Positions 19,272 through 64,000 of a stretch of 64,000 nt of DNA are shown one piece after another. A program made the translations under genes and the position numbers. Source of the stretch: Naegleria gruberi (lineage: Eukaryota); assembly GCA_000004985.1 (NCBI GenBank), contig GG738873.1. One strand, 5' to 3'. Numbering within the stretch: the stretch's first letter is position 1; every line of letters starts with the position of its first letter. The notes beneath the pieces were generated by a model that was not told the origin of the DNA, searched no databases, and was given only the letters and a program-made list of their open reading frames with translations.

Positions 19272-19510
19272 TTTTTTTGGAAATATTTTTGACTAATTAA
19301 GAAAATTAAAATACAAGAAAATCACAATAATTGATTTATTCTCTTAAAGTATATAATTTAAAACCAAAAACAATTGGACAATTATTTGGTAAATATTTTC
19401 AGCCGAAAAGCAATGCAATTTTTGTGAAAAATGATTCATCATTAAATTCCGAATACAATTTAATTTTCAAAGATGTTTATTTAATAAGGCATTAAAATTG
19501 ACTAAAAAAA

Positions 19511-21501: not shown

Positions 21502-21805
21502 TTAATTTTTTTAATAAAAAATTTCGTAAAAATGTGATTTTTTGCCTGACGATTTTTACCAAATTTTTGTTCAATTTGGTCAAATCACCAATACGAACCT
21601 TAGTGGTTGCATCACCATTTCCAGAGAACAAACTTGATATGTTTCCACCTGGAAACATAATACTACTAGCAGCAAAACCCGATGACACTGTAAAGGCAGC
21701 ATCTTGGATAGCTTGAGCATCGCTTGGAGAAAACTTTGCTTCTAAGAAGGTAGAGCAGAAAAGCAAGCAGCTTAGAAAAATTACTACAATTGTTTGTTTG
21801 AGCAT
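21488..21805 (-). CDS. Small secreted protein (signal peptide + ~80 aa), hypothetical
   Basis: ATG at 21805. N-terminal signal MLKQTIVVIFLSCLLFCSTFLEA. The 3' end overlaps the convergent neighbour, so the true C-terminus is uncertain. Confidence 0.25.
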   Translation of the reverse strand: MLKQTIVVIFLSCLLFCSTFLEAKFSPSDAQAIQDAAFTVSSGFAASSIMFPGGNISSLFSGNGDATTKVRIGDLTKLNKNLVKIVRQKITFLRNFLLKKLIIHH

Positions 21806-22291
21806 TTTTTTGCTTTTTGTAATTCTATTGTGTCGCAGTTGTTTTTAACAGATTTCTACTGCAGTCGAAAAAGTTTTCAACAATCTAGATTGTGTTTTAT
21901 TATTGCTTAAGCATGAACACTTTTGGAAATTTCGAGAACAATACATGTCAAATGATTTTTTAGAAGGGCACCGTAATGGAAAAGGACAAGTGCTGTTTGA
22001 GAAATAAGCAAACATTCCATCATTGGAGGATAAATTGTTGAGGATTAAGCGGAAGGGAATTGAGAGAAGTAATGGGGATAAGATGCAACAATTCAATAGA
22101 ATTCAAGATCTTGGAAAGGAATTCATAAGTAGTCGATGTGTACATTTGGCCTAATGCACAAATTAACCTGTTGTTACTTTACGTCGAGGATTGTTGTTGT
22201 TTTTGACATTATCAAAGATCTTTTCACATGATGTTCAGATTATTTAGAAGAAGTATTTTAAGTTTTTATAAATATTGTGAGGAAGATGTAT

Positions 22292-30264: not shown

Positions 30265-30505
30265 TTAAACTTTACATTGTTGTTTCAAAAAGTGTCAACA
30301 CAAATGCAATATAAACAGTTCAACCTACGCTATTACAGGAGTAGTATTAACAATTTAAAAATAAACCTTCTTATTGAATACGGAGAATGGTAACACTCTA
30401 AACAGGAGTTAATATTTTTGGCGGGACTTTTCTGTGCTTCCGCATTAGAAAAAAAGTGGTGCACTTGAAAGTGGTTGTTGGCTAACGTATCAGAGAATTT
30501 AGAAG

Positions 30506-32967: not shown

Positions 32968-33189
32968 TCTCTCTTCCTCTCTCCTTAATAAACAACCTCC
33001 ACCACATTGTATTGTAATAAAATCTCTAGACTATTAATCATGGTTTTGTATGATCCAATGCTCTTCTTTGTGGTTCAGAGCATAAGGCAAACATCTTCAA
33101 AGGGTTTTAGATGATGTCTCAAACAAAGCTGGCAATGCACATCACTATTTTAGATAATGCGCCCTCATCTCCTCTTTTTAAAAAAAAAA

Positions 33190-35451
33190 ATGAGCACATG
33201 GATCGATGAAAGAAAGTCAAGCTCTAGCAGCTGCAGTTCGACACATAGTGATAGAAAAGACAGTATATCTGTTTGTATACCTCAATTACTAACGGATTCA
33301 ACAATAGTACCACATATTTTGGTTATTGACGATGATCCAGTGACTCGTAAAACATTAGCTAAACTTTTATCAAATCTTGGATACAAAAGTAGAACAGCAA
33401 GTGGAGGTAAAGAGGCTTTAAATCTTCTTGTACAAGATAACGAAGACCCTTTCCATTGCTTGTTAGTAGATGTTCTTATGCCGGAGATGGACGGTTTTGG
33501 ATTTCTTAGAGTTTTAAAACAAGCCATCAACAGAGAAATTCCTTGTATTATGATGAGTGGAAGTGAAGACCCTGAAACAGTCTCAAAATCATTTCAATGC
33601 GGAGCCGAAGATTTCCTTCCAAAACCTATCAAGGAAGAAATTCTTAGGGCAAGAATTCAAACCGTATTAGCCTATCGTGATCGAAGAATTAGAGAAAAAT
33701 TCTATATTAACAAGATTCATGAAGAACAACGATTAAGAAATCAATTACACATACAAGAAAAACAAAATGAAGAAGAGTTATTAGCCTTTAAAAAGAAGGT
33801 TGGTGAATCCATCGAAACACCTATTCAATTAATTGTTGGTGCTGTTGGTGATATCATTAGTGGAAATTTGGACAAAGAACAAACCAAACTTGCTTTAATA
33901 TCAGTTATGAAATCATTAAGTTCATCTAATTTGTATAGACCAGCCTTTTTGGATTCTTTAAAAACTGCAGAAATGGATGAAGCCACCCGAAAATGGCTTG
34001 TGAATCAATATACCAAAGATGCCGAAGAGTATAAAACAAAGATCAAGGCTGATAGAAGTGATAGCATTGATTCAACTGCCTCAAATGATTCTACTCCTGG
34101 TGTTGCTTTAGCTTCACCACTTCCACCAAAAACAGAAGTTTTACCTTATGATCTTGAAACATACAAACCTGATGTTGATGTAAAATCACTCAATTATGAT
34201 GCATTTAAGTATAATGATTATGAAGAACTCAAGAAGCACGCAATGTATTACTTTAAATCCCTCAATATGTTTGAAAGATTCAATATTAATCCGATCAAAC
34301 TTTGGAATTTCCTAGGAGAATTGAAAAAGAAGTATAGAAATAACCATTATCACAATTTTAGACATTGTTGTGATGTCACTCAATATCTCTTCATGCTCCT
34401 CAATCATGAAAAGATTGATAGTTTCTTCTCTGATATGGAAAAATTAGTACTCCTTCTCTCAGGTCTTACTCACGACATTGACCATCCAGGAGTTAACAAT
34501 AACTTCTTAATCATGACTGAAGATGAACTTGCATACAGATACAATGATAAGAGTGTATTGGAAAATTATCACGCTTTCAATGCTTTTAAAATTATGCAAA
34601 AGGATGAGTTCAATGTGTTGGATGGTTTAACAGAGGAACAATACAGAGAACTCAGGAAGATAATGGTTCAAACAATTCTTGCAACAGATATGACAAACCA
34701 CTTTTCAATCATTTCTATTTTTGAATCAAGAATTGGTACAGGTAGACTTTCTAATGAAAATGCTGAAGACAAATTGTTATTAATGAGAGTATTGATGAAA
34801 TGTTCCGATATCAGTAACCTTAGTAGACCTTTTGCAATTGCTAAGAAGTGGGCCAATGCCTGTATTAATGAGTTCTTTTCACAGGGTGATTTGGAAAGAC
34901 AAAAGGGATTACCAATCAGCCCTCTAATGGATAGAAATACTTTAGATTTTCCAAAATCTCAAATGGACTTTGGTAAATTCGTAGTTTCTCCTTTGTTTAA
35001 ATTACTTGCAACATCATTCAAAGAATTGAGCTATATTTATGAATCTGTCTGTAATAATATTGAAACATGGAAACAAATATTTGATGAAGAACAACTGAAA
35101 AAGGCCAAACAGTCTGAAATTGCAAAGGAAGAACCAAAAGAAACGAAAGAAAAGATTGAATCTCCTCAAACCGAAAAGCCTCAACAGCCCTCACAAACAG
35201 CTGAAACTCAAAGTACTACGTCCAACTCACCACCTACCACTTCTGTAAACAACACTTCCTCTACTTCATCATCTAACACTAGCAGTCCAACTGAATCCAC
35301 AACAAGTCAAACAACACTTGCAAGCCGTTCATCCAATGCTTCCACAAGCTCAACTCCTTCCAAAGGATCTAACCTCAACGTTTTGCTCCCAATCTTTATT
35401 CTAATTCTTTCTCTAATTTTGTATTTCCTTACTCAATCAACCTCTCAGTAA
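33190..35451 (+). CDS. regA: RegA-type protein: N-terminal response-regulator receiver domain fused to a class I (HD) 3',5'-cyclic-nucleotide phosphodiesterase, plus a Ser/Thr-rich tail ending in a hydrophobic helix
   Basis: Receiver motifs ILVIDDDPVTRKTLAKLL…LLVDVLMPEMDGFGFL…KP (Asp pocket and conserved Lys). PDE catalytic motifs YHNFRHCCDVTQ, HDIDHPGVNNNFL, ILATDMTNHF. Tail …STSSTPSKGSNLNVLLPIFILILSLILYFLTQSTSQ*. There is an alternative upstream ATG at 33157. Confidence 0.75.
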   Translation: MSTWIDERKSSSSSCSSTHSDRKDSISVCIPQLLTDSTIVPHILVIDDDPVTRKTLAKLLSNLGYKSRTASGGKEALNLLVQDNEDPFHCLLVDVLMPEMDGFGFLRVLKQAINREIPCIMMSGSEDPETVSKSFQCGAEDFLPKPIKEEILRARIQTVLAYRDRRIREKFYINKIHEEQRLRNQLHIQEKQNEEELLAFKKKVGESIETPIQLIVGAVGDIISGNLDKEQTKLALISVMKSLSSSNLYRPAFLDSLKTAEMDEATRKWLVNQYTKDAEEYKTKIKADRSDSIDSTASNDSTPGVALASPLPPKTEVLPYDLETYKPDVDVKSLNYDAFKYNDYEELKKHAMYYFKSLNMFERFNINPIKLWNFLGELKKKYRNNHYHNFRHCCDVTQYLFMLLNHEKIDSFFSDMEKLVLLLSGLTHDIDHPGVNNNFLIMTEDELAYRYNDKSVLENYHAFNAFKIMQKDEFNVLDGLTEEQYRELRKIMVQTILATDMTNHFSIISIFESRIGTGRLSNENAEDKLLLMRVLMKCSDISNLSRPFAIAKKWANACINEFFSQGDLERQKGLPISPLMDRNTLDFPKSQMDFGKFVVSPLFKLLATSFKELSYIYESVCNNIETWKQIFDEEQLKKAKQSEIAKEEPKETKEKIESPQTEKPQQPSQTAETQSTTSNSPPTTSVNNTSSTSSSNTSSPTESTTSQTTLASRSSNASTSSTPSKGSNLNVLLPIFILILSLILYFLTQSTSQ

Positions 35452-37715: not shown

Positions 37716-39176
37716 TTAAATTCTGGCTCCATAATAGAAATGGTTCATTCTCTCCTCGAACAATAAATCAGAATATTCGAAAGCAAAACCGTTTTGCTTT
37801 ACGGCTTCCTTCTCCATCTCCTCATCTGGATATAATCGCTGCAGATATTTCAAGCAATGGCCATTAATTTTGATAAGACTCATTGCCATATCTCTGTCAA
37901 CATCTATGGCTGCATATTCTAGAACTGAAGGATAACCTTCTTTAACTAATTCCACTATGAATCCAGTATCTTCTCTCAACGCAGACGAGGCGTACATAAA
38001 TGATTCCTCAATAGAAGCCAAAGCTTCTTTAACAATCACCTTATCTGACTGTAGAGAGGGATGAACATACTGAAGAGCCAATCCTTGTTTTTTCACAATT
38101 TCTAACACAAATTCTCTATCACTCTTTAAATTATCTGAAGCTAAATAAAGAAATGACTGATTCTGTTTGTGATTTGCTGCTTCTATAAGAATCTCCTTAT
38201 CTACAACAAATTCATTTGGTACATATGTTAATGCCTCTGAATTTTGAGATACAGCAGCTAAAACAACATCTCTATCCATTCTTAGCCTATGTGATGCATA
38301 GTATATGAGCATTCCATCTTTTCTCATTAATTCAATAATAAACTCTTTGTTATCAATCAATGTAAAAGGAGCAAGTTCTAAAACAGAGTTTCTCTTCATT
38401 ATTAACTGTTTCATTAATTCCAAGTCTTGAAAACAATGTGGAATATGCTTAATAGCATATATTTCAGCAAGAGCTTGGACCATCACATCAAAATCATTTT
38501 TCAACTCGTCTGAAACAAATTCCAAGGCCCTTCCATTCAGTAACAAGGCAGCCAGTACAAATTCCTTATTATTTCTCAAACTATAAGGAGTTTCACTATT
38601 CAAATTGCAATCAGGAAGATTCATTCCCAAATATTTGTCGACCTTCGACACTTTTTCAATAAAGGATTGAGAATGAATCAAATCCTTCGATACAAATAAA
38701 ATTGCACGCCTATGTCTCGATACTATTTCCACATTAAAATCCTCATCACAATCAAAAAACAATAATATTTTAGGATCTAAAGAGATACAATCTAACAAGA
38801 ACTCTCTATCATCAAGTAATTCCCCAGGAATATCGTCAACCATACAAATACGATTTTTAAACAATTCAAGTGCTACTCGACGATTATACATTATAAACCT
38901 GGGAATCACCACTGTAGGAGTAATCTTTTGATTTTTAATTAAATTTAAAATCATATCTGTTTCTTTCATCCACTCGATTGGAATAAAACCTTCAAAAACC
39001 ATGCCACTCATCCGATCAAGCCTATTTTCCAACCATTTCTTCTTTCCTTTCTGTTGGTTAGAGAATTTACCTTTAAGAAGGCTTGTTAGAAATTCCAAAT
39101 GATCTTCAACTTCCGAATCATCACCCAATCCGTGTAAGGAACTTGACTGAGTAATAATCAAAACACAAGATGACAT
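37716..39176 (-). CDS. DUF4116-repeat protein
   Basis: At least six tandem ~30-aa repeats of the form (K/R)EFVL.AV.QNG.AL.YV…L..D..VV..AL. Confidence 0.5.
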   Translation of the reverse strand: MSSCVLIITQSSSLHGLGDDSEVEDHLEFLTSLLKGKFSNQQKGKKKWLENRLDRMSGMVFEGFIPIEWMKETDMILNLIKNQKITPTVVIPRFIMYNRRVALELFKNRICMVDDIPGELLDDREFLLDCISLDPKILLFFDCDEDFNVEIVSRHRRAILFVSKDLIHSQSFIEKVSKVDKYLGMNLPDCNLNSETPYSLRNNKEFVLAALLLNGRALEFVSDELKNDFDVMVQALAEIYAIKHIPHCFQDLELMKQLIMKRNSVLELAPFTLIDNKEFIIELMRKDGMLIYYASHRLRMDRDVVLAAVSQNSEALTYVPNEFVVDKEILIEAANHKQNQSFLYLASDNLKSDREFVLEIVKKQGLALQYVHPSLQSDKVIVKEALASIEESFMYASSALREDTGFIVELVKEGYPSVLEYAAIDVDRDMAMSLIKINGHCLKYLQRLYPDEEMEKEAVKQNGFAFEYSDLLFEERMNHFYYGARI

Positions 39177-39378
39177 TTTTTACATGAACAACTTTTAGTA
39201 TATTCTTACAATTTTTGAAAACATTATTCAGATCAGCAATTCATTTTGTAAATAAACATAAAACGTGATCCACCATGATTGGTATTAAGCAAGAGTAATA
39301 CTTTCTATTGATGTGAAGGTCACCTCATAAGCTACTCTTATCCAATATGCTAATAAAAATCTTTTGAAAGCCAAAAAA

Positions 39379-42300
39379 ATGCAAAAACTCTCGTCCCACA
39401 CAAATATGAGGTTGATGGGTGTTGTCTTGTTGTTGGCGATCACAACACTCACTCTGATACAATCATCAATGGGGAATCATCAAAAAGCAAGTGGTGATAT
39501 TTATTTTAAAACTGTACACATCATTCCGCACAGCCATTGGGATGTTGGTTGGTTGAAAACAAAGAAAGATTATTATGAACAAGAAGTGAGAAACATTATC
39601 GGATCGGTGATTAAAGCTTTGACCGAAAAGCCTGATAGAAAATTTATATTTGTAGAGATGAGTTTTATTAGTTATTGGTGGGAAGATTCTTCAGTGAGCA
39701 AGGAAGAGAAAAATCTTTTCATGAAATTCTTGAATGAAAAGAGGATTGAATTTGCATTGGCAGCTATGACAATGTCTGATGAAGCAGCTAATACCTACTC
39801 TTCTGTTATTCACACATTGACAAGAGGACACCAATATGTAATTGACACTTTTAATACCAAAGATCGTGATTTTATTCCTACTTCATCATTTAGAATTGAT
39901 CCTTTTGGATCTACAACAACAATGACTCGTATTTATAGAGAATCTGGTTTGAGTGACACTGTTATTATGCGAATTCCACAAGGTAAACAAACGGAAATGA
40001 GAGATAATAAGCAAATGTCATTCTATTGGAATTTAGCTGATGGGTCTTCTGTGTATAGTAATATTATGGATTATCAATATTGTGTAAGAGCACTCTTCTT
40101 TGATGGAGAATCATCTATTTCATATGGCTCTGATGAAATTGTTGCAGATGAAATGCACAGAGAAATTTTGAAATACTCTTTGGGATTTAATCAATCTGAT
40201 ATTATGCTTCCTGGAGGTTGTGATTTCTCATTCCAAAATGCTCCAGAAAGATTTGCTAAAATCGAAAAAGGTATGAAGTATATCAATGACCATCCTGAAA
40301 TCTATCCATATAAGGTTAAATTCTCACTCTTAAGTGAATATATGCAAGCTTCTAGACCTAAAAAATCTGGAGATGTTTATTCATACAATGCTGACTTTAT
40401 GCCATATGCAGATGGTCCAAATGCATTCTGGACTGGTTATTATACATCTTATCCAATTTTGAAACAAGCCATCAGAACTGCTGAAAGCTTCTTTAGAGCT
40501 GCCAAAGCACTCTTTGCCATCAGTACACCATATGTCAAAGATGATCAAAGAAAAGGATTTATTGAACAAGGATTTAAACAATTAGATCAGTTGGCCGTCT
40601 CTATGGCTGATGTTACTCACCACGACGCTGTAACTGGTACCTCCAAATTAGAAGTTACCAAAGATTACATTGATTCATTGTCTGATGGTGTAAAGGAGGC
40701 TAAGCAAGCATTGACTCAATCATTAACTGCTCTTATTACCAGCAAGTTATCACAATCAGATATTGTATTGGAAGATTATCTGAATAAGTTGGTTTCAAAC
40801 AGCTTCTCTTTTACAGAACTTATGCAAAAGTTCTCCTCCCTCATTAGTCAAAGAAAATACAGCTATTCCATTCCAATTGTACTTTTCAATAGTCTCTCAT
40901 GGGACATTGAGAACCATGTAGAAACAATTGGTCCAGATGAAGCAGCTCCATTTTCCTCAATTATCAAACAAATATGCTTCTTTTCTATGGAAGGAACTAG
41001 ATTGAAATCACAATACTCAAAATCTGTACTTGCTCCTGATGAATATGATTTGCATTTCGTCGTTCCAAAAATTCCAGCCCTTGGCTATACAACTGTTCTC
41101 ATTAAGCCATGTGATACTATGGAGCAAGGAAGTATTAATGAAGAAATTATCAACATAGAAGACAAACCATACACTATTTCCAACTCAAAGACTAGTGTCA
41201 CTTTCTGTAAGAAGAACAATATGGTCTCTCTTTGTTCAATTGAAAAAGAAGGAAATAAGTATGAAATCTCCCAAAAACTAATGACCTATACAGGAATTTC
41301 AGGCTACACCTTTGGAGTTAATCAACAAAAGAGCGGTGCCTACATCTTTGCTCCAAAGAGCCAAGAACCAACTCTTATTACTCCTACCTCTAGCTCTCTT
41401 CTCATTTCTAATTCAATCTCTAACAACATTTTCACACAAGTGGAACAAACTGTTGAAAAATATGTTAAACAAATAGTTAGACTTTATCAACCAGAAATTG
41501 CTCAAAAGCAAGGATATGATTTGGAATATATTTACTACTTTGATGATATTCCTGGTGATGACGAAATAATTACCAAGTTCGATGCTTCAGCATTTATTTC
41601 CTCTAAGGGCGTATTCTATTGTGATAAGAATGGTTTGGAAACAGTTAAATCAAATACCAAGAGCAAAGTTGAAGCAACTTATCTCCCAATTGTATTTAAC
41701 TGTTTTATCAGAGATGAAGAAAAGAAGACTCAATTGACTCTCTTTGTTTCTGAAACTCATGGTGCTGCTAGTATGAAGAATGGTGAATTGGAAATTATGC
41801 TCCACAGAAGAACCCTCAGTGATGATGGTAGAGGTGTAGATCAACCAGTTAATGATGAATCTAATATTGCTATTAATATTAAGGTTAGAATTGATTCTAC
41901 CTCAGCCGAACCTAATTTGAGAGGCATTCTTTATCCAAAGGTTGCTCTCACAATCAATTTCCCTCCATTCGTTGCGCCATTCCAAAAGTCTTTCTATACA
42001 CCAATTAATAGAGATTTTGTGGATACTTTCTCTATGAGAAATTTGGTAACATCATTCTCCATTCTCGAGAAACCATTACCATCATCTATTCATGTTTCCA
42101 ATATTGATATTGTTCTCAACAGAAAGAACCCATCAGCATCTGATGTTAAAGCTCTTGTTCAACTTCAAAGTTTGGACATCAACTCTGAGCAGGCTCAATT
42201 CAGTTTGACTGATTGCTTTAAGAAGGAATTTATTGATAAGAAGATTCGCTCAATGAATGAAACCAATCTTTCCACATCAAGAACCAGAGGCCCAATCCCA

Positions 42301-42531
42301 ACCAATAGCAAGATTGAGCTTTCTCCTTTCAATTTCAGAACATTCCTTTTAAGACAAGGAAGACATGCACAGAAATTAATCTTCAAAGAACAAGATCAAG
42401 CCCTAGAATGGACTTTCACTGTTGGTTTAATGATTGGATGTATTTCAATGATTGCCCTCTTAGCAACTCTTGTTGTTTACTTTATCTATCACCAAGCCAA
42501 ATACGCATACACAATGCTCGAAAATAAATAA
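39379..42531 (+). CDS. GH38 alpha-mannosidase (lysosomal-type), N-terminal signal peptide, unusual C-terminal TM anchor
   Basis: Signal MQKLSSHTNMRLMGVVLLLAITTLTLIQS. GH38 catalytic-domain motifs (HIIPHSHWDVGWLKT…, alpha-mannosidase middle and C-terminal domains). C-terminal hydrophobic helix LMIGCISMIALLATLVVYFIY followed by a short basic tail. Confidence 0.8.
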   Translation: MQKLSSHTNMRLMGVVLLLAITTLTLIQSSMGNHQKASGDIYFKTVHIIPHSHWDVGWLKTKKDYYEQEVRNIIGSVIKALTEKPDRKFIFVEMSFISYWWEDSSVSKEEKNLFMKFLNEKRIEFALAAMTMSDEAANTYSSVIHTLTRGHQYVIDTFNTKDRDFIPTSSFRIDPFGSTTTMTRIYRESGLSDTVIMRIPQGKQTEMRDNKQMSFYWNLADGSSVYSNIMDYQYCVRALFFDGESSISYGSDEIVADEMHREILKYSLGFNQSDIMLPGGCDFSFQNAPERFAKIEKGMKYINDHPEIYPYKVKFSLLSEYMQASRPKKSGDVYSYNADFMPYADGPNAFWTGYYTSYPILKQAIRTAESFFRAAKALFAISTPYVKDDQRKGFIEQGFKQLDQLAVSMADVTHHDAVTGTSKLEVTKDYIDSLSDGVKEAKQALTQSLTALITSKLSQSDIVLEDYLNKLVSNSFSFTELMQKFSSLISQRKYSYSIPIVLFNSLSWDIENHVETIGPDEAAPFSSIIKQICFFSMEGTRLKSQYSKSVLAPDEYDLHFVVPKIPALGYTTVLIKPCDTMEQGSINEEIINIEDKPYTISNSKTSVTFCKKNNMVSLCSIEKEGNKYEISQKLMTYTGISGYTFGVNQQKSGAYIFAPKSQEPTLITPTSSSLLISNSISNNIFTQVEQTVEKYVKQIVRLYQPEIAQKQGYDLEYIYYFDDIPGDDEIITKFDASAFISSKGVFYCDKNGLETVKSNTKSKVEATYLPIVFNCFIRDEEKKTQLTLFVSETHGAASMKNGELEIMLHRRTLSDDGRGVDQPVNDESNIAINIKVRIDSTSAEPNLRGILYPKVALTINFPPFVAPFQKSFYTPINRDFVDTFSMRNLVTSFSILEKPLPSSIHVSNIDIVLNRKNPSASDVKALVQLQSLDINSEQAQFSLTDCFKKEFIDKKIRSMNETNLSTSRTRGPIPTNSKIELSPFNFRTFLLRQGRHAQKLIFKEQDQALEWTFTVGLMIGCISMIALLATLVVYFIYHQAKYAYTMLENK

Positions 42532-42554
42532 TTTATTGAACTACCTCTGATAGT

Positions 42555-43406
42555 TTATCTTTTTGCCTTCAAAAGACCTAAAGCTAAAACGCCCAACCCA
42601 AGTACACCTCCAATAGCTAAACTTGCACCTCCTGCCAGAGCAAGTCCTATCATTCCATCTCTTTCCACCTTCTTTTTCTTTCTTTTGATGAGGGACTTCA
42701 ACCTAAGACCTTGTTCATTTTGATAATCAAAATCTAAAAGCTTTGCAACAGCTGATTCGGCCTTTGCATAATCCCTTAAAAAGAAAAATCCCAATGAAAT
42801 CAAATATAAACAATCTCTCTTATAATGTGACGAATCATCAACCATAATTTCATTAAATATATCACTGTGATCTCTTAGGATTGATTCTAACAGTTTAATT
42901 CCTTTATGTATTAAAGCTTCATTTCCTGACTTGACATATAGAATAGCCAATGTGAAAGATGACTGTGCTCTCTCCTTTTCATTACTACTTGTCTCCAATA
43001 ATTGTTCAGCTGATTCAATCATGTCACTTGTAATAAACTTTTGCTCTTCCTCCAATGATTTTTCCAGAAAATCCAAATATTCATCTTCGTCATTTCTATC
43101 CAATTTTCTAGCATGATGAGTTTCCATATTATTATCAACAATAGTTGTTGTATTCTTATTATAATCTACACTATTAAAATATTTATCATAACCATTAATA
43201 AGTGGTGATTGAATAGTTGGATCAATCAAATTATTATCATTTGATATGCTAGTTGTTTCGATTTGTAGTTGTGATGAAGAATTGTTATCCGAAGGTGCAA
43301 CATCACTATCATGATCGGCAGTTGAAGCACCAATAGCACTAGTACTGATGGTACTGCTATCCAATTCTCTTTCTTCCTCTGATTTTGGTGGGCCAATGTA
43401 AACCAT
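42555..43406 (-). CDS. fis1: Mitochondrial fission 1 protein (Fis1) homolog with a long N-terminal low-complexity extension
   Basis: TPR-like core …FTLAILYVKSGNEALIHKGIKLLESIL…RDCLYLISLGFFFLRDYAKAESAVAKLLDFDYQNEQGLRLKSLI… followed by C-terminal tail-anchor GMIGLALAGGASLAIGGVLGLGVLALGLL. The first ATG (MVYIGPPK) is near 43406; the ORF-track start at 43442 is a non-ATG codon. Confidence 0.65.
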   Translation of the reverse strand: MVYIGPPKSEEERELDSSTISTSAIGASTADHDSDVAPSDNNSSSQLQIETTSISNDNNLIDPTIQSPLINGYDKYFNSVDYNKNTTTIVDNNMETHHARKLDRNDEDEYLDFLEKSLEEEQKFITSDMIESAEQLLETSSNEKERAQSSFTLAILYVKSGNEALIHKGIKLLESILRDHSDIFNEIMVDDSSHYKRDCLYLISLGFFFLRDYAKAESAVAKLLDFDYQNEQGLRLKSLIKRKKKKVERDGMIGLALAGGASLAIGGVLGLGVLALGLLKAKR

Positions 43407-43947
43407 TTTTATTCTTGTTGTTTTTCTATTAATAATTTTCAAGTATTGATTGCTTTCTAATTGAGTTCTATGTTTTGTAAAATTATCAAAATTTGTAATT
43501 GGCTAATAATTAGTGTAGAGTAATTTAATAAATTAACAGTCAATTAGAAGGGTAATGATGTGGAATTTGTTTTTTTAATATTTGCATTGAATTTCATCAT
43601 GATGATGATTTGAAAAAGTAATACGCCAATCAAATATTTACACAAATTAATATCAACTCCATATCTTGACAATACTCTAAATTCATCCGAGTCAATTAGA
43701 CAACTTATTTCTTCATGAAGAGAAGAACCACATCATCACAACTGTCGGAGGGAAAAAAGTAAAAAATTTTCTTCATCAATAGGAAATAGAAAGAGAAAAT
43801 AGCGCACATAGGCATTCTAGTATTGAAATGAATGTATTTTCAATATAATCCCTTCATTCTCATCATTGAATTTGCTATGAAGAGAAAGGTGACTTGCCTC
43901 TGGCGACAATAAAAAGCTTTGTAACAATTTGTTGTTGAAGAAAAAAA

Positions 43948-45855
43948 ATGTCATCAAAGTCGAAGAAGGGTAGTAGTTCCGGAGAAGAAACACTTACTCG
44001 TATTGCTATCGTTAGCGAAGATCGATGCAAACCAAAGAAGTGTTCTCAAGAATGTAAAAAATCATGTCCTGTTGTTCGTATTGGTAAACTCTGTATTGAA
44101 GTTAAACCAACCGATAAAATTGCCTTCTTATCTGAAGAATTGTGTGTTGGTTGTGGTATTTGCGTCAAGAAGTGTCCATTTGAAGCTATTCAAATTATCA
44201 ACTTGCCAAAGAACCTTGAAAAGGAAACCACTCACAGATATGGTCCAAACTCTTTCAAACTCCACAGATTGCCACTTCCACGTCCAGGACAAGTTCTTGG
44301 TTTAGTCGGAACCAATGGTATTGGTAAATCAACAGCTTTGAAGATTTTAGCTGGTAAGGAAAAGCCAAACTTGGGTCAATTTGCCAAGCCACCAGAATGG
44401 ACAGAAATCTTGGCCTATTTCCGTGGAAGTGAATTACAATCATATTTTACTAAACTTTTGGAAGATAACTTGAAGACTACTATGAAGCCACAATACGTCG
44501 ATCAAATTCCTCGTGCCGTCAAGGGTAAAGTTCTCCCTATGCTTAAGAGTAAGGATGAAAGAGAAGTTTTGCAAGATCAAATTGAAAAGCTTGATTTGGG
44601 AAGTGTTTTGGATAGAGAAATTGGTGACTTGTCTGGAGGTGAATTGCAACGTTTTGCTATTGCCATTGTCTGTGTTCGTAAAGCTGATGTTTACATGTTT
44701 GACGAACCATCATCATATTTGGATGTTAAACAAAGATTGCAAGCTGCTCAAGTTATTAGAGATCTTTTGAGTCACGACAACTATGTTATTGTCGTTGAAC
44801 ACGATTTGAGTATTTTGGATTATTTGAGTGACTTTATCTGTTGTTTATATGGTGTTCCTGGTGCTTATGGTGTTGTTACTATGCCTTTCTCTGTTAGAGA
44901 AGGTATTAACATTTTCTTGGCAGGTTTCGTTCCAACTGAAAACTTGCGTTTCAGAGAAGATGCTTTGAACTTCAAGGCCAGTGAAAATCTTGAAGAAATT
45001 GAAGAATCTGCCTCAAGAAAGACCTATTCTTATCCTGCTATGAAGAAGTCTTTCGGTAAGGCTTTCGAATTGAGCGTTTGCCCTGGTTCATTCTCTGCTT
45101 CTGAAATTGTTGTCTTGTTGGGTGAAAACGGTACTGGTAAAACTACTTTCATTAAGATGCTTGCTGGTAAGGAACAACCTGATGATCCTTCTGTCAATGT
45201 TCCTGAATTGAGTGTTTCATTCAAGCCTCAAACTATTGCTCCAAAGTATCCTGGTTCAGTTAAAGATTTATTGTTGACAAAGATTAGAGAAGCTTTCTCT
45301 CATCCTCAATTCAATGCTGATGTTTTGAAGCCAATGAGTATTGGTCACTTGATGGATCAAAGAGTTCAATTCTTGTCTGGTGGTGAATTGCAAAGAGTTG
45401 CCTTGGTTTTGGCTTTGGGTACTCCTGCTGATGTTTATTTGATTGATGAACCTAGTGCTTATTTGGATTCTGAACAACGTCTCCATGCTGCTAAGGTCAT
45501 TAAGAGATTCATTCTCCACACCAAGAAGACTGCTTTCATTGTAGAACACGACTTTATCATGGCTACTTATCTTGCTGATAGAGTTATTGTCTATGAAGGT
45601 GTTCCTTCAGTTAAGGCTCTTGCCAACTCTCCACAAGCTTTGCTCAGTGGTATGAACAAGTTCTTAAAGTCACTCAACATTACTTTCCGTCGTGATCCAA
45701 CCAACTATAGACCACGTATCAATAAGTTGAACTCTATGAAGGATAAGGAACAAAAAGAACAAGGAAATTATTTCTTCCTCGATGATGATGAAGATGAAGA
45801 AGAAAAGTCAAACAAGAAGAAGACTGAAAAGAAGAATACTGAAAAGAAGAAGTAA
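43948..45855 (+). CDS. abce1: ABCE1 (RNase L inhibitor / Rli1): N-terminal 4Fe-4S domains plus two ABC ATPase domains
   Basis: [24 protein letters not shown]…[12 protein letters not shown] (FeS clusters). Two Walker A sites ([24 protein letters not shown]). Signature motifs LSGGELQR ×2. K/E-rich tail. Confidence 0.9.
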
Positions 45856-59700: not shown

Positions 59701-61257
59701 TTACAAATAAATAGAAAATATAAACATTTCTAAAGAATAAATATAAATAACATTCTTGGAAGAATTTTCCAATTTCAATCTGCATTGTTCAAATTCTGCT
59801 CCAATAGTTGTAATTTCCTCAGGAGACACCAATTTTTTGATTGATGCAAATAAATCCCATCTGTCGTAATTGTTAATAAGACATAAATTAAGCATATTGA
59901 TATACTCTGCATTGGATCTCTTTTGTAATGGGAAGAGTCTAACTTTCATAGATGAATCTAAAACAGCAATAACACAACAATTTGGGGATATATCTGCATC
60001 ACAAATTGTGGTATCAACAGGTTCCTCTGTCAGTTTTCTCTTTTTTGGTAATGGATTATTAATAGGTTCTTCCAATATTAATTCATCAGTTTCTCCTTTG
60101 GTATCTATTGTTTGGTAGTGCTTGAAGGACATTATTTCTGCAGCATATTTATATACATGGACTTTAGTGGTATCTGTAAATAATAAATAATTTCCATCAA
60201 TTGAAGTTTTAAATGAGAGCATTTCGGCTTTAAGAGGAGTAAAGTGCTTATCTTCTCTCCAATATTTTAGGGCGTGGGTTATATCGTCTTTAGAGTCTTT
60301 GGAATCTTTAAATTGCAAGCTTTGATCTCCTGCACTGGTCATTACTGCTTTCAAGCTCATTCTTTTAGGGTATTGGTGATAAATCATATATTTGTTATCT
60401 TGGGTCTGTATCATGATCTTATTCTTATATGGAATCAAGTATAGACCTGCAACAAGACCATCTATTGAGAAGCAAGTTCTCGAAATTAATATTAAATTAT
60501 TTGGAAGGGTAGTATCTACATTTCTACCTCTTTCAATGGCTAACTTTGCAACATGAATAGTTGAACTATCTCTTTCTGAACATATTACACAAATATTTCC
60601 ATCTTCCAATATTGTGAAATCTGCACAAATAAGTCCATTTAAATTCAATTGAATACTAGAAGTTACCCATTTGTATTTTGAATGGTCATAGAAATAAAAT
60701 AAAACCTCTCCATGGCTTGTGATGGCAATAAATGAACGAGTTCCACTTGGTAAATTAACAATTGATGAATATTTTCGGGTGTATCTAGCTTCCAATTCTG
60801 GTGAATCATTATTAATTGTTGTATTGTCATTAAGATAAGTAATAACATTGTCACACCATTTACAACACAATACATTCTCGCAATAAAAAGTCTTTCTTAA
60901 ATGATAATCGTTAACACATTGATTGACACATTTCCACAAAGTAATAGTATTGTATCTATCATGAGACAATAACATTCCAACTCCTTGAGAAAGTTGCCAA
61001 TTTAATCCTCTAACTTCATCATACAAATGATTTGACGGAATTTTCTCCACTTTTGATGGTTCATTCGGATCCACAACAAAAATCTTGTTCTGTGTAGAAT
61101 AGGATAACATGTTATGCTTGTTGAAGGAAATTACTCCCTTTGGTACAAATTTACTTAGTTCGATCGGTTTTTCATCATCAATAGTACCATTCATCAAACT
61201 TTCCGTTCCATTAGCAACAAGAGAAAAACAACTTCCCTCTTGTGATGATCCGAGCAT
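59701..61257 (-). CDS. Hypothetical 518-aa protein (possible β-propeller-type fold); the 3' end may involve a short intron
   Basis: Long ORF with ATG at 61257. No diagnostic motif recognised. Confidence 0.4.
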   Translation of the reverse strand: MLGSSQEGSCFSLVANGTESLMNGTIDDEKPIELSKFVPKGVISFNKHNMLSYSTQNKIFVVDPNEPSKVEKIPSNHLYDEVRGLNWQLSQGVGMLLSHDRYNTITLWKCVNQCVNDYHLRKTFYCENVLCCKWCDNVITYLNDNTTINNDSPELEARYTRKYSSIVNLPSGTRSFIAITSHGEVLFYFYDHSKYKWVTSSIQLNLNGLICADFTILEDGNICVICSERDSSTIHVAKLAIERGRNVDTTLPNNLILISRTCFSIDGLVAGLYLIPYKNKIMIQTQDNKYMIYHQYPKRMSLKAVMTSAGDQSLQFKDSKDSKDDITHALKYWREDKHFTPLKAEMLSFKTSIDGNYLLFTDTTKVHVYKYAAEIMSFKHYQTIDTKGETDELILEEPINNPLPKKRKLTEEPVDTTICDADISPNCCVIAVLDSSMKVRLFPLQKRSNAEYINMLNLCLINNYDRWDLFASIKKLVSPEEITTIGAEFEQCRLKLENSSKNVIYIYSLEMFIFSIYL

Positions 61258-61362
61258 TTTTTTTAATTAATTTGAAATTATTTTTTTATAAAACTTAAAT
61301 ACAATTTTAAATCTATTAATAGTTGTCAATAGTTGAATGAAAAAGTATTGAAATTTTTGGAG

Positions 61363-62379
61363 CTAACTAATGTTTTGAGTGGGATAATTAACAATCTTGC
61401 TTAAAATAGTGGCAAATTGAATGCATTCTTGAACTGAGTTTGGATTGCAGCTCACTATTGAAACCATATTCGATTCTCCAAAGAAATCACCTTTTAAACT
61501 CTTGACAAATGAACATCCTTTGAGTGGTATGATGGGTTGTTGACATAGATCCAATGATCTTGCAATAGGCTTCAATTGTTTAAACACACAAGTCAATTCT
61601 TCACATTGATAATTGACCATTCGAATAAATTTCAATTGACTCTTATGAATGTGCTCTTTCTTTTCATTTTCATCCATGATTCTCCTATCCACTTCTATTA
61701 AAATATAATTTGACATTGTAAATGATGACGTTTCCTTTTGATTGTAGAAACAAGATGTGTTAAATAAACATCTTTCCAAAAATTCCAATGAATCTTTCAA
61801 ATTGAAAAGTGAAATCTTTGAATAGCCGTGAAGAATTGGTTCCTCATTGCTCTGAAATTTAATTACAGGAAAGTTTGCACTTAAAATATCATGAAATCGT
61901 TCACCTGTTAAGCAGAGACAAGATGCTTTGAGTGAAACTGAACTTTTCTGATCAGAAAATAAATGTTCAAACGATTGTTGTATCATTCCATTCATATCAT
62001 CATGTGTATTTCCCATCATTCTATGTCATTCATAACCAATTAATAGAAGAAAATATTAGAATTCAATTTGAAAGTAATCTTACATGTTCATATGGCTGAC
62101 ATCCTCTACAATCATAACAGTTCCATTGTATCCATGGAGTGTTTTATCAATGGTTGGCATGATTGCTTCTTTGAAATATATATTACAATTGACAGGACTT
62201 CATTCTTAAGAGAATTAGAATTTCTTGAAAACTTACTCTTCCACAACTCCATCATATTGATATTCTCTATTATTTTTCAAGTCAACAATGCACTTTCCCT
62301 TGTTGTCCTTAATTTCCATGTCTGTCAATTGATTACCATCATAAACATGCAAGACAACCACTGCTTGACTTTTAGACAT
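61363..62379 (-). CDS. Kinesin-like motor-domain-only protein A (~325 aa, 3 exons) with degenerate P-loop and switch II
   Basis: Exon 1 is 62379→62237 (MSKSQAVVV…YQYDGVVEE, donor GA|GTAAGT). Exon 2 is 62198→62084 (DPVNCNIYFKEAIMPTIDKTLHGYNGTVMIVEDVSHMN). Exon 3 is 62010→61363 (…SNYILIEV…IPLKGCSFVKSLKGDFFGESNMVSIVSCNP…). It retains kinesin landmarks F.FD.VF, GYNGT, SSRSH-like and HIPYRDSKLT-like segments, but GQTGSGKT is absent. Confidence 0.55.
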
Positions 62380-62427
62380 TTTTTAATTGTGAAGAGATTA
62401 AAAAGTGTGACACATTGTGACTTGTTA

Positions 62428-63514
62428 TTAATGTTTATGAACAGATTCTGTTGCAATATGCTTCTTAGGATGATTAACAATCTTTGAGAATGATGAAGCA
62501 ATTTGAATAGTTTTCAAAATTTGTTGTTTTGTTGTTCCAATACTAAATACGATTGATGTATTCGAATTGCCGCCTAAACCTTCTCTCAAGCTATGTGTCA
62601 GAACATTATCTCTGTATGGAATGAATTTTTCACCTGTTGTCAATCTGTTTACCACAGACAAAAACTGATCATAAGTTTTTGCCATTTCCAATCCTAGTTT
62701 GGAAGTTTCCAAAAAGTAATTCATAATATCCACAAACTTGATTTCACTCTTCAAAATTTGAAAACTTTTATCCTCTTCCTTCCATTCTCTTTGCTCAATT
62801 TCAATAATCATATAATAAACAGCATGTCTAGTATTTGTCGATCCATGTTGAGTAGCAAAAAGTGTTGAATGTTTCATTCCAGCATTCACCAATTCATTCA
62901 CAACTTTCATTGAGAGAACAGGAACTCTTTTCAATCCTTCAAAGCAAAGTGTCTTGTTAGGTAATTCCTTAAATTTAACTCTCGGAGTTGTTGAATCCAA
63001 AACATCATAAAATAATTGATTACACAACATTAGGGAGGAGGCATAAATTGTGACTTGATCGTGCTTTCCTTCAATCATTTCAAACAACTTTTCAAAGGTG
63101 TGAAATATTAAGCCCTTCTCATGACGCATTAATCTGTTTATGGGATAAAGAGCATTAAGAAAATTTAGATAATTACAAAGCTAGATATAAATACTAACGT
63201 TTTTCTATGAGCCTCATCTTCAAATAATAAAACAGTTCCATCAAAACCTAACATGGCTTGTTCAACAATTGGTTTCACAGCAACATTAAACAATTCTGAA
63301 CAATCTACAGGACTAACTCATCCGATATAAATAATAACAAAATCCATTCATTCAATGTGTATACTTACTCTTCAAATACTCCATCAAAAGGATACTCAGT
63401 TGTTGGCCACGTATTAAAATCTCTCATAATTTTCCCTTCCTTAATGCCCATATTAATGTCATCCGAGTAGTCATTCCAATCAAAAGCTTGAATATACACT
63501 GAAAGTGGTTTCAT
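62428..63514 (-). CDS. Kinesin-like motor-domain-only protein B (~325 aa, 3 exons), paralog of A, also with a degenerate P-loop
   Basis: Exon 1 is 63514→63369 (MKPLSVYIQ…EYPFDGVFEE, donor GA|GTAAGT). Exon 2 is 63312→63199 (DPVDCSELFNVAVKPIVEQAMLGFDGTVLLFEDEAHRKT, donor AC|GTTAGT). Exon 3 is 63133→62428 (…HGSTNTRHAVYYMIIEIE…KFVDIMNYFLETSKL…FIPYRDNVLTHSLREGLGGNSNTSIVFSIGT…SFSKIVNHPK). Confidence 0.55.
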
Positions 63515-63792
63515 TTTTTTTTAAATTGTGAAATCTCCAAATTAGTTCTTCCTTAGTGTTAAATTTGGAAGTTCCACATAAGGGCATCATCTTTTCAATT
63601 TGCCTTAAATTGATCCAAATTAAAAACAAGATAAAAAATTGGTGTGTTTCAGATTTTGTGATCAAGTAGCAAGCATGCATGGATCCAACCAATAATACTG
63701 TAGCAATTATTGTAAAGACATTAAAGATATTACAAAATGTATTTAAATATTTAAAAAATTCTATTTTTATTCAAAAACACAAATTAAAAAAA

Positions 63793-64000
63793 ATGGCATT
63801 AGCGTTCCTCAATCTAAAATCCTTTCACCCTCTGAACAAGCAAAATCAGAGAAAGAAATGGATAGCGGAACAACAAGAAAAAGCAAAACGTAAACTTGCC
63901 GAACAACGTATCAAAGAATTAGCAGATGAACAAGAATTATATAAAGAGGAAAAAGTCAAGCTAATACAAAACAAGGTAACAAAGAAGCAATCATCAGAAT
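63793..64000 (+). CDS. N-terminal exon (3'-partial) of a CWC25/CIR-family pre-mRNA splicing factor
   Basis: A-rich Kozak ATG. MALAFLNLKSFHPLNKQNQRKKWIAEQQEKAKRKLAEQR… matches the Cir_N motif (LNLKKSWHP…N.E.VW.AEQ). Donor AAG|GTAACA lies near 63990. Confidence 0.5.
   Translation, partial: MALAFLNLKSFHPLNKQNQRKKWIAEQQEKAKRKLAEQRIKELADEQELYKEEKVKLIQNKVTKKQSSE

What the first reader, a model, noticed from the sequence alone, without database searches (positions are those of the whole stretch)
61363..63514. Tandem pair of kinesin-like motor-only genes with degenerate nucleotide-binding motifs
Two head-to-tail paralogs on the minus strand are separated by only ~48 nt. Each encodes just a kinesin motor fold, with no stalk or tail. 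In the position of the universally conserved P-loop GQTGSGKT, copy B reads GFDGTVLLFEDEAHRKT and copy A reads GYNGTVMIVEDVSHMN. Switch II (DLAGSE) is also unrecognisable (KFVDIMNYFLETSKL). The neck-linker-proximal HIPYRDSKLT/LGGNS block is well conserved. This pattern suggests catalytically inactive pseudo-kinesins (microtubule binders or regulators) rather than motors. The 48-nt spacing leaves little room for a separate promoter for copy A, so the pair could instead be one gene with two dead motor modules.
Basis: partly seen in the sequence, partly recalled or inferred. Interest (0 to 1): 0.7.

Follow-up and report, generated by a model that had tools for sequence, protein, structure and literature searches.

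The report
Tandem tail-less dead kinesin genes (Naegleria)
Two neighbouring genes in a Naegleria-type amoeboflagellate genome each encode only a kinesin motor fold whose ATP-binding site has been destroyed. Both are still kept by natural selection, so they are probably non-motor proteins that bind microtubules or act as scaffolds, an unusual but not unprecedented fate for a motor.

Summary
On the minus strand, copy B (62428-63514, 321 aa) and copy A (61363-62379, 304 aa) are each three exons with two GT..AG introns at identical positions and phases. They lie 48 nt apart.

- **Fold:** Both match Pfam Kinesin PF00225 (E 1.5e-30 and 2.3e-10).
- **Relationship:** They are each other's closest relatives (29% identity, E 2e-39).
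- **Catalytic motifs:** Both lack the P-loop, switch I, switch II and RxRP. The shared replacements (GQ->ED, AG->NY) show the loss happened before the duplication. No frame of 61200-63800 encodes GxxxxGK[ST] or DxxGxE.
- **No stalk or tail:** Neither protein extends beyond the motor core.
- **Selection:** A 98%-identical metagenome contig gives 13 synonymous and 4 non-synonymous changes (omega about 0.075). These are selected genes, not pseudogenes.

- The genome is Naegleria gruberi-like (Heterolobosea), not amoebozoan.
- The microtubule-binding L12/alpha5 block is conserved only in B.
- The single-gene idea fails. Four in-frame TAA stops separate the copies, each has its own A-run ATG, and 19-300 nt spacers are normal in this window.

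No orthologs turned up in 1.84 billion representative proteins. Catalytically dead kinesins are already known (Vik1/Cik1, trypanosome KIN-B). This is a tail-less, tandem, lineage-restricted variant. Its function (nucleotide-independent microtubule or tubulin binding) is inferred only.

The parts
62428..63514 (-). Copy B gene (321 aa, 37.0 kDa). Exons 63514-63369, 63312-63199 and 63133-62428. Introns 63368-63313 (56 nt, phase 2) and 63198-63134 (65 nt, phase 2). Ends in the double stop TAATAA.
   Evidence: model. (PF00225, 106.8 bits); versus L001 there are 8 synonymous and 2 non-synonymous changes, and the 1-nt and 3-nt indels fall only in intron 1.
61363..62379 (-). Copy A gene (304 aa, 34.8 kDa). 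Exons 62379-62237, 62197-62084 and 62020-61363. Introns 62236-62198 (39 nt) and 62083-62021 (63 nt), at the same codon positions and phases as in B.
   Evidence: model; junction peptides EDPVNC in A and EDPVDC in B are conserved across intron 1. (PF00225, 40.4 bits). (A versus B: 29% identity, E 2e-39). (5 synonymous, 2 non-synonymous).
62380..62427 (-). 48-nt spacer between B's stop and A's ATG. Counting B's own TAA (62430-62428), four in-frame TAA codons lie between B's last sense codon and A's ATG. The spacer is identical in the related contig L001.
63133..63221 (-). Copy B ex-P-loop EDEAHRKT (aa 80-87; the last codon is split by intron 2). It sits directly after beta3 GFDGTVLLF (63248-63222).
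62824..62844 (-). Copy B ex-switch I GSTNTR-H (aa 184-190). The R and H are kept, both serines are lost, and there is a one-residue deletion.
62713..62730 (-). Copy B ex-switch II DIMNYF (aa 222-227). Only the Asp is kept. The following L11 loop is about 4 residues shorter than usual. In contig L001 the T-run here carries one extra T.
62557..62691 (-). Copy B alpha4-L12-alpha5 region (LEMAKTYDQFLSVVNRL ... FIPYRDNVLTHSLREGLGGNSNT). This is the best-conserved kinesin block and forms the microtubule-binding face in canonical kinesins.
62086..62106 (-). Copy A ex-P-loop EDVSHMN (aa 79-85). The Lys-Thr pair is also lost.
61606..61623 (-). Copy A ex-switch II RMVNYQ (aa 219-224). The NY pair is shared with copy B.
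61465..61533 (-). Copy A degenerate L12/alpha5 block IIPLKGCSFVKSLKGDFFGESNM.
63518..63532 (-). TTCACAATTTAAAAA element immediately 5' of B's ATG. The same 9-mer TTCACAATT plus an A-run precedes A's ATG at 62379-62393.
   Evidence: 2 exact matches and 1 near match, against 0.3 expected..

Best explanation
These are two separate, tandemly duplicated protein-coding genes of a Naegleria gruberi-like heterolobosean. Each encodes only a kinesin motor-domain fold of about 35 kDa, from beta1 to a short neck-linker stub. There is no coiled-coil stalk and no tail.

Their common ancestor was an N-terminal-motor (kinesin-1/2-like) gene. It lost the nucleotide pocket (P-loop, switch I, switch II and RxRP) before the duplication. 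Neither protein is therefore expected to bind or hydrolyse ATP, or to step. Both genes are nevertheless kept under strong purifying selection.

The most likely mode of action is nucleotide-independent binding through what remains of the kinesin surface. Copy B keeps the alpha4/L12/alpha5 microtubule-binding signature, so it is predicted to dock statically on microtubules or tubulin. It would act as a MAP-like regulator of the only microtubule arrays Naegleria makes, the spindle and the flagellar apparatus. Copy A has lost much of that face and may act as a partner or adaptor.

Shown here: the gene structure, the kinesin homology, the motif loss, the shared ancestry of the loss, the selection, and the two separate ORFs. 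Inferred: catalytic inactivity (from sequence), microtubule binding, and any A-B cooperation.
For: - Gene models and kinesin match. PDB profile hits are all kinesin motors. An AlphaFold model of B exon 3 matches only kinesin motor domains in Foldseek, at probability 1.00.
- Motif loss is concentrated in the pocket. Among columns at least 90% conserved in 46 ordinary kinesin motors, B keeps 4 of 19 pocket columns against 23 of 45 others (Fisher p = 0.03). A keeps 1 of 19 against 20 of 45 (p = 0.003).
- Shared derived residues (E80, D81 and H84 in the ex-P-loop; N225 and Y226 in ex-switch II; EDPVxC; SKIVN[HY]P), together with A-B being mutual best relatives at 128 bits versus at most 73 bits to any PDB kinesin. 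The loss therefore predates the duplication.
- Introns sit at identical positions and phases, so this was a DNA-level tandem duplication.
- Selection, from window versus contig L001 at 98.25% identity: 13 synonymous and 4 non-synonymous substitutions, with 16 of 17 at codon position 3. dS 0.046, dN 0.0035, omega 0.075, binomial p = 7e-7. Introns diverge 3.6% against 1.2% for exons (p = 0.013).
- No hidden catalytic exons.
- Separate ORFs: in-frame stops, A-run ATG contexts, and short spacers that are typical of this window.
- B keeps IPYRD..LT..L...LGGNS.T.
- Precedent for inactive kinesin-fold proteins with cellular roles: Vik1/Cik1 (PMC4338441) and KIN-B (PMC10987093).
Against: - No biochemical, expression or localisation data are available.
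- B has lost several canonical tubulin-contact or coupling residues. By my own no-gap alignment to human KIF5B, recalled from memory, these are N255->A, K281->V and R284->H. A has lost most of them. Both proteins are mildly acidic (pI 6.2 and 5.7). Microtubule binding is therefore not assured. In trypanosomes, the inactive KIN-B motor domain alone did not go to the spindle (PMC10987093).
- The related contig L001 carries a +1 frameshift inside B. If real, B is dispensable in at least one strain.
- No orthologs were found, so long-term conservation beyond about 2% divergence is untested.
Confidence: 0.6

Rival explanations
1. The kinesin fold has been repurposed as a protein-protein interaction scaffold unrelated to microtubules, for example binding a kinase, a cargo adaptor or an active kinesin. 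The conserved L12/alpha5 block would then be retained for folding rather than for tubulin contact.
For: - The L12/alpha5-LGGN segment is also a structural core element.
- A has lost most tubulin-contact residues, and both proteins are acidic.
- The inactive KIN-B motor domain did not localise to the spindle on its own (PMC10987093).
Against: B keeps the P-Y-R-D...L-T...LGGN pattern and an alpha4-like helix far better than it keeps the rest of the protein. No partner-binding motif or extra domain is present.
Confidence: 0.25
2. The pair is expressed as one unit. This could be a single polypeptide with two dead modules or a bicistronic transcript covering both ORFs.
For: - The spacer is only 48 nt.
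- A's ATG is in the same frame as B, 51 nt downstream.
- The spacer is 100% identical in L001.
- The same TTCACAATT/A-run element precedes both ATGs, which would fit co-regulation.
Against: - Single polypeptide: four in-frame TAA codons, including a TAATAA double stop, lie between the ORFs, and no GT..AG path joins the frames.
- Each copy carries its own start context, as other genes in the window do.
- Spacers of 19-146 nt between other same-strand genes here show that compact promoters are the norm.
- To my knowledge, polycistronic mRNAs are not described for Naegleria.
Confidence: 0.1
3. They are decaying pseudogenes or relics of a kinesin duplication with no function.
For: - All catalytic motifs are gone.
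- No orthologs were detected.
- One related contig has a frameshift in B.
Against: - Both ORFs are intact across three exons with canonical splice sites.
- omega is 0.075, with 16 of 17 substitutions at third codon positions.
- The three substitutions downstream of the L001 frameshift are all synonymous in the original frame.
- A and B have stayed alignable end to end at 29% identity without disabling mutations since an old duplication.
Confidence: 0.05
4. They remain nucleotide-binding enzymes with a non-canonical pocket. B still has the Lys-Thr of the P-loop, the Arg and His of switch I, and the Asp of switch II.
For: B retains K86-T87, R189/H190 and D222.
Against: - The glycine-rich phosphate-binding loop is replaced by acidic residues (EDE).
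- The switch II Gly and Glu, both switch I serines and the RxRP adenine contact are gone.
- A lacks even the K-T pair.
- From established kinesin mechanism, these residues are needed for gamma-phosphate sensing and Mg2+ coordination.
Confidence: 0.05

Closest known systems
Vik1 / Cik1 motor-homology domains of budding yeast, the non-catalytic partners of kinesin-14 Kar3
   Same: They have a kinesin-motor fold without a nucleotide-binding site, and they are retained because the dead head still does useful work, namely microtubule binding that tunes the active partner (PMC4338441, PMC3384419).
   Different: In Vik1/Cik1 the dead domain is C-terminal, behind a long coiled coil that heterodimerises with Kar3. 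A and B have no coiled coil or any other domain, their motor is N-type, and no catalytic partner is evident. Vik1 is so divergent that sequence searches do not link it to kinesins, whereas A and B still match PF00225.
Trypanosoma brucei KIN-B, an orphan inactive kinesin of the chromosomal passenger complex (also Discoba)
   Same: It has an N-terminal kinesin domain lacking the P-loop, switch I, switch II and many alpha4-L12 residues. It is predicted to be inactive but is functionally important (PMC10987093).
   Different: KIN-B has C-terminal coiled coils and pairs with the active kinesin KIN-A. A and B are tail-less and tandem to each other, not to an active kinesin. No specific sequence relationship was found. 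The best hits of A and B are ordinary kinesin-1, -2 and -4 motors.
Canonical N-type kinesin motor domains: kinesin-1 (N. crassa, 1goj), kinesin-2 (KIF3B, 3b6u; Giardia, 2vvg) and kinesin-4 (KIF4)
   Same: The whole-domain alignment runs from beta1 to the start of the neck linker. The best profile scores are 89.6, 85.5 and 80.6 bits. The motor is at the N-terminus, and the GYNGT, L12/alpha5 and LGGN blocks are recognisable.
   Different: All four nucleotide motifs are missing and L11 is shortened. There is no neck coiled coil, stalk or tail. No subfamily is clearly preferred.
Salpingoeca macrocollata EP00052_P026332 (P0079), a choanoflagellate kinesin-like protein with degenerate motifs
   Same: Its P-loop (GESTAEHG) and switch II are lost, and its C-terminal ...FAKIVNH resembles SKIVN[HY]P.
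   Different: It is only 26% identical to B, at 73 bits by BLASTP, which is about what ordinary kinesins reach against B. It is 520 aa with extra N- and C-terminal sequence. This is most likely an independent loss.
Kinesin-11 (KIF26A/B) and Costal2-type divergent kinesins of animals (from my own knowledge, not tested here)
   Same: These are kinesin-superfamily members reported to lack motor ATPase activity and to act as microtubule-bound scaffolds.
   Different: They are large multi-domain proteins with tails and signalling partners. They are restricted to animals and are not tandem motor-only genes.

Membership tests
Kinesin superfamily (Pfam PF00225 motor-domain homology) | Significant whole-domain match to the kinesin motor HMM or fold | tested here: met
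   B scores 106.8 bits and A 40.4 bits, against a gathering score of 29.3. PDB hits are all kinesins. Foldseek with the B exon-3 model returns only kinesin motors.
Kinesin superfamily (as ATP-driven motors) | N1 P-loop GxxxxGK[ST] | tested here: not met
   B has EDEAHRKT and A has EDVSHMN. No such motif exists in any frame of 61200-63800.
Kinesin superfamily (as ATP-driven motors) | N2 switch I NxxSSRSH | tested here: not met
   B has GSTNTR-H (R and H kept, one residue deleted). A has ETSSFTMS.
Kinesin superfamily (as ATP-driven motors) | N3 switch II DxxGxE | tested here: not met
   B has DIMNYF and A has RMVNYQ.
Kinesin superfamily (as ATP-driven motors) | N4 RxRP adenine-binding motif in beta1 | tested here: not met
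   B has QAFD and A has a gap in the alignment.
Kinesin superfamily (as ATP-driven motors) | Microtubule-binding alpha4 / L12 / alpha5 signature | tested here: inconclusive
   B keeps IPYRD..LT..L...LGGNS.T and an alpha4-like helix with one conserved Lys, but lacks the conserved alpha4 Asn. A is degenerate (IIPLKGCSF...FFGESN). Binding itself was not tested.
Kinesin superfamily (as ATP-driven motors) | Microtubule-stimulated ATPase or motility | not testable with these tools
   This needs recombinant protein assays.
Kinesin superfamily (as ATP-driven motors) | Neck coiled coil, stalk or tail for oligomerisation or cargo | tested here: not met
   The ORFs end 19 aa (B) and 12 aa (A) after the start of the SKIVN motif at the alpha6 end. 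Stops flank both ORFs, and no splice path leads to downstream ORFs.
Vik1/Cik1-type non-catalytic kinesin partner | Kinesin fold lacking a nucleotide site | tested here: met
Vik1/Cik1-type non-catalytic kinesin partner | Coiled coil that heterodimerises with a catalytic kinesin-14, with the dead domain C-terminal | tested here: not met
   There is no sequence outside the motor core, and the affinity is N-type.
KIN-B-type inactive orphan kinesin (Kinetoplastida) | N-terminal inactive motor plus C-terminal coiled coils, pairing with the active KIN-A in the CPC | tested here: not met
   The motif loss is analogous (PMC10987093), but A and B have no coiled coil. No other kinesin gene lies in the 64-kb window. 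Orthology to KIN-B was not tested directly.
Specific kinesin subfamily (kinesin-1, -2, -4, -9 ...) | Clear best affinity to one subfamily | tested here: inconclusive
   A1 profile scores: kinesin-1 89.6, KIF3B 85.5, KIF4 80.6, KIF3C 77.6, KIF9 73.7 bits. Only N-type motors lead the list, but there is no decisive gap. No phylogeny was attempted because of the extreme branch lengths.

The most novel reading that the evidence does not exclude
A and B are founding members of a Naegleria-restricted class of stand-alone 'headless-motor' MAPs. These would be nucleotide-free kinesin heads with no stalk that bind the lattice or free tubulin directly, possibly as an A-B pair. They would have diversified to read or regulate Naegleria's two separately expressed, divergent microtubule systems (mitotic versus flagellar tubulins). 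That would be a motor-to-MAP transition distinct from the coiled-coil-tethered dead heads known so far.
Probability: 0.15. Interest if true: 0.65.

Novelty: new variant of a known kind. Interest (0 to 1): 0.4.

Why it matters
Pseudo-enzymes derived from motors show which parts of a motor are useful without the engine. The dead kinesin heads described so far (Vik1/Cik1, KIN-B) work while tethered by coiled coils to an active partner. A selected, tail-less dead head would show that the bare kinesin fold can be kept as an autonomous binding module.

Naegleria builds microtubules only for mitosis and for flagella, and uses separate tubulin sets for each. It is therefore a clean system for asking what such a module does. 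The pair also gives a natural experiment: B keeps the canonical microtubule face and A has lost it.

The practical stakes are modest. This is a lineage-restricted orphan with no demonstrated function.

Tried and rejected
- **Word-indexed protein search with spliced B:** no hits. With the A+B profile, only ordinary kinesin-8-like proteins with intact motifs came back.
- **Exhaustive HMMER search of 1.84 billion representatives with B exon 3:** the only close hit was P0001, a 153-aa fragment from an ENA metagenome contig. The next hit, P0002, is a repetitive artefact of a normal kinesin. Of the top 150, 8 failed my motif regexes, including P0001 itself, and 7 were inspected. None is an ortholog. 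P0079 is a choanoflagellate protein that probably lost its motifs independently.
- **Two JGI metagenome scans (B alone, then the A+B alignment):** nothing.
- **Exact-sequence look-ups of my gene models and of neighbouring ORFs:** not on record. I therefore could not recover a Naegleria gene ID or an existing annotation.
- **Synteny walk into N. lovaniensis through ABCE1:** only mannosidase-Fis1-ABCE1 are syntenic. Synteny breaks before the kinesin pair, and there is no A/B homolog in that 22 kb.
- **Structure prediction of the full spliced proteins:** Only exon 3 of B could be modelled (pLDDT 62).
- **Expression data:** the Naegleria microtubule-regulator preprint has no supplementary files held. 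The kinesin-evolution paper says nothing on degenerate Naegleria kinesins. The metagenome project PRJEB11402 is not mentioned in the library.
- **Splice paths:** I looked by eye for paths fusing B to A, or A to the downstream 518-aa ORF. Every candidate runs into stops.
- **Subfamily phylogeny:** considered and dropped as unreliable at this divergence.
Full report
**What is there.** The window is eukaryotic: about 33% GC, gene-dense, with short GT..AG introns.
- Copy B: exons 63514-63369, 63312-63199 and 63133-62428. Introns are 56 and 65 nt. The protein is 321 aa.
- Copy A: exons 62379-62237, 62197-62084 and 62020-61363. Introns are 39 and 63 nt. The protein is 304 aa.
- In both copies intron 1 splits the same codon (GA|T, in E-D|PV) and intron 2 the codon just after the ex-P-loop. 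Both introns are phase 2. The peptide EDPV[DN]C is conserved across the first junction.
- The spacer between B's TAA and A's ATG is exactly 48 nt.

**Is it kinesin, and are the motifs really gone?**
- Pfam PF00225 matches B at 106.8 bits (E 1.5e-30) and A at 40.4 bits (E 2.3e-10). The gathering score is 29.3.
- PDB sequence searches return only kinesin motor domains. For B the best hits are KIF3B at E 2.5e-19 and Giardia kinesin-2. For A the best is N. crassa kinesin-1 at E 1.1e-7.
It reached pLDDT 62 and pTM 0.64. In Foldseek it hits only kinesin motors at probability 1.00.
- I aligned A and B with 46 complete ordinary kinesin motors taken from the search results:

| Motif | Consensus | Copy B | Copy A |
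|---|---|---|---|
| RxRP | RxRP | QAFD | gap |
| P-loop | GQTGSGKT | EDEAHRKT | EDVSHMN |
| Switch I | NxxSSRSH | GSTNTR-H | ETSSFTMS |
| Switch II | DLAGSE | DIMNYF | RMVNYQ |

- Among columns at least 90% conserved, B keeps 4 of 19 pocket columns against 23 of 45 others (p = 0.03). A keeps 1 of 19 against 20 of 45 (p = 0.003). The erosion is therefore focused on the active site.
- The L12/alpha5-LGGN block is nearly intact in B (FIPYRDNVLTHSLREGLGGNSNT). It is degenerate in A (IIPLKGCSFVKSLKGDFFGESNM).
- No frame of 61200-63800 encodes GxxxxGK[ST] or DxxGxE. The degenerate P-loop follows GFDGT/GYNGT-beta3 without interruption. A corrected gene model therefore cannot restore the motifs.

**Relationship of the two copies.**
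- A and B are 29% identical over their full length (128 bits, E 2e-39). That is closer than either is to any other kinesin.
- They share derived states at the dead sites. ED replaces the GQ of the P-loop, with a following His. NY replaces the AG of switch II.
- They also share the idiosyncratic blocks EDPVxC and SKIVN[HY]P.
- Together with the identical intron positions, this indicates an old DNA-level tandem duplication of a gene that was already catalytically dead.
- The A+B profile prefers N-type motors: kinesin-1 89.6, KIF3B 85.5, KIF4 80.6 and KIF9 73.7 bits. No subfamily wins decisively.

**Are they functional genes?** The exhaustive representative search found one close relative, P0001. 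It lies on a 1,717-nt ENA metagenome contig (L001). L001 aligns to window 63436-61725 at 98.25% identity.
- Of 17 exonic substitutions, 16 are at codon position 3, and 13 are synonymous.
- dS is 0.046 and dN is 0.0035, giving omega of 0.075. For B alone omega is 0.064 and for A alone 0.092. The binomial p is 7e-7.
- Introns diverge 3.6% against 1.2% for exons (p = 0.013).
- The 1-nt and 3-nt indels lie within B's intron 1, which also validates the gene models.
- One anomaly: L001 has an extra T in the T-run inside B's ex-switch II codons. This causes a frameshift. The three substitutions downstream of it are all synonymous in the original frame. It is therefore either an assembly error or a very recent null allele. 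I could not decide which.

**One gene or two?** Two ORFs.
- B ends with TAATAA. A's ATG is 51 nt downstream in the same frame, but four TAA codons intervene.
- No GT..AG combination joins B to A, or A to the next ORF (59701-61257), without meeting stops (reading).
- Stops lie 2 to 3 codons upstream of both ATGs.
- Both ATGs have the A-run context seen at most starts in this window.
- Same-strand spacers elsewhere in the window are equally short: 19 nt at 35451/35471, 43 nt at 59657/59701 and 105 nt at 61257/61363. The 48-nt gap is therefore not evidence for fusion.
- Both ATGs are preceded by the same TTCACAATT-plus-A-run element, with 0.3 matches expected by chance. This may be a shared cis-element.
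- Co-transcription cannot be excluded without RNA data.

**Organism.** The ABCE1 gene at 43948-45855 is 99% identical to a Naegleria gruberi predicted protein. It is 90% identical to N. lovaniensis and 84% to Willaertia magna. The host is therefore N. gruberi or a very close relative (Heterolobosea, Discoba), not an amoebozoan. Local synteny with N. lovaniensis covers mannosidase-Fis1-ABCE1 only.

**Distribution.**
- Beyond L001, nothing resembling A or B was found. The rest of the top 150 of 2,847 hits are ordinary kinesins at 36% identity or less, nearly all with intact motifs.
- The exception is a choanoflagellate protein with independently degenerate motifs.
- Two metagenome scans and two word-indexed searches found no orthologs.
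- The library does contain N. lovaniensis and W. magna proteomes. Either these species lack annotated orthologs, or their orthologs are too divergent to detect.

**Mechanism.**
- Shown: two selected genes encoding bare kinesin folds with an obliterated nucleotide pocket.
- Inferred from established kinesin mechanism: without the glycine-rich P-loop, the switch I serines and the switch II Gly and Glu, there can be no Mg-ATP binding, no gamma-phosphate sensing, and so no stepping.
- Inferred with moderate confidence: the proteins act by binding. B keeps the alpha4/L12/alpha5 face used for tubulin contact, which favours nucleotide-independent docking on microtubules or tubulin.
- A has lost most of that face and may be a partner or have a different ligand.
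- With no coiled coil, the Vik1/Cik1 and KIN-B mode (a dead head tethered to an active head; PMC4338441, PMC10987093) does not apply directly.
- Naegleria makes microtubules only in the spindle and the flagellar apparatus, and expresses most regulators specifically for one or the other (bioRxiv 10.1101/2024.01.08.573270). Expression timing would therefore be informative.

**Verdict.** The 'pseudo-kinesin' reading is supported. The 'single two-module gene' alternative and the amoebozoan attribution are not. Dead kinesin-fold proteins are a known phenomenon. This tail-less, tandem, lineage-restricted pair under strong purifying selection is a new variant of that kind. Its function has not been demonstrated. 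Interest is moderate (0.4).

Noticed in passing
L001:1-1717, equivalent to window 63436-61725; the insertion is in the T-run at window 62713-62719: A 98.25%-identical metagenome contig (ENA ERZ929261 / PRJEB11402) carries a +1 T frameshift inside copy B at the ex-switch II codons. Everything else about that contig indicates purifying selection. It is either an assembly error or a recent null allele.
   Followed up: partly
window 63518-63532 (-) and 62379-62393 (-); near match at 30347-30361 (+): The same TTCACAATT(T)AAAAA element sits immediately 5' of both kinesin-like ATGs, although the proteins are only 29% identical. About 0.3 matches are expected by chance. It may be a compact promoter, initiator or 5'UTR element.
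   Followed up: partly
window-wide; for example, starts at 1950, 5228, 19271, 19511, 37569, 43948, 61257, 62379 and 63514: Most ATG starts are preceded by a run of 5-9 A residues, and same-strand intergenic spacers are often under 150 nt. This indicates very compact regulatory regions in this genome.
   Followed up: partly
window 33157-35451 (+): A RegA-like protein that combines a response-regulator receiver domain with a class I cyclic-nucleotide phosphodiesterase domain (PF00072 and PF00233). This architecture is best known from Dictyostelium RegA.
   Followed up: no
window 6315-13298 (-): A 2,327-aa ORF with NHL repeats, teneurin-type EGF repeats and a C-terminal protein-kinase domain that is cut at the ORF end, so it probably continues in another exon. 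It looks like a giant receptor-kinase-like protein.
   Followed up: no
window 17037-19271 (-) and 18000-22000: A DUF7869-containing 744-aa ORF lies next to the most AT-rich stretch of the window (GC 0.25-0.28). This may be a mobile-element remnant.
   Followed up: no
window 37716-39176 (-): A protein made of seven DUF4116 repeats.
   Followed up: no
window 39364-45855 versus L002 (N. lovaniensis PYSW02000038.1): The alpha-mannosidase, Fis1-like and ABCE1 genes are syntenic between this window and N. lovaniensis. The order breaks immediately downstream of ABCE1.
   Followed up: partly
window ~63797-64000 (+): A divergently transcribed gene begins about 282 nt upstream of copy B (MALAFLNLKSFHP...). 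By eye it resembles the N-terminal domain of CIR-type co-repressors. This was not tested.
   Followed up: no
P0079 (EukProt EP00052_Salpingoeca_macrocollata_P026332): A choanoflagellate kinesin-like protein that has also lost the P-loop and switch II, and that ends its motor with ...FAKIVNH. This is probably an independent case of a dead kinesin.
   Followed up: partly
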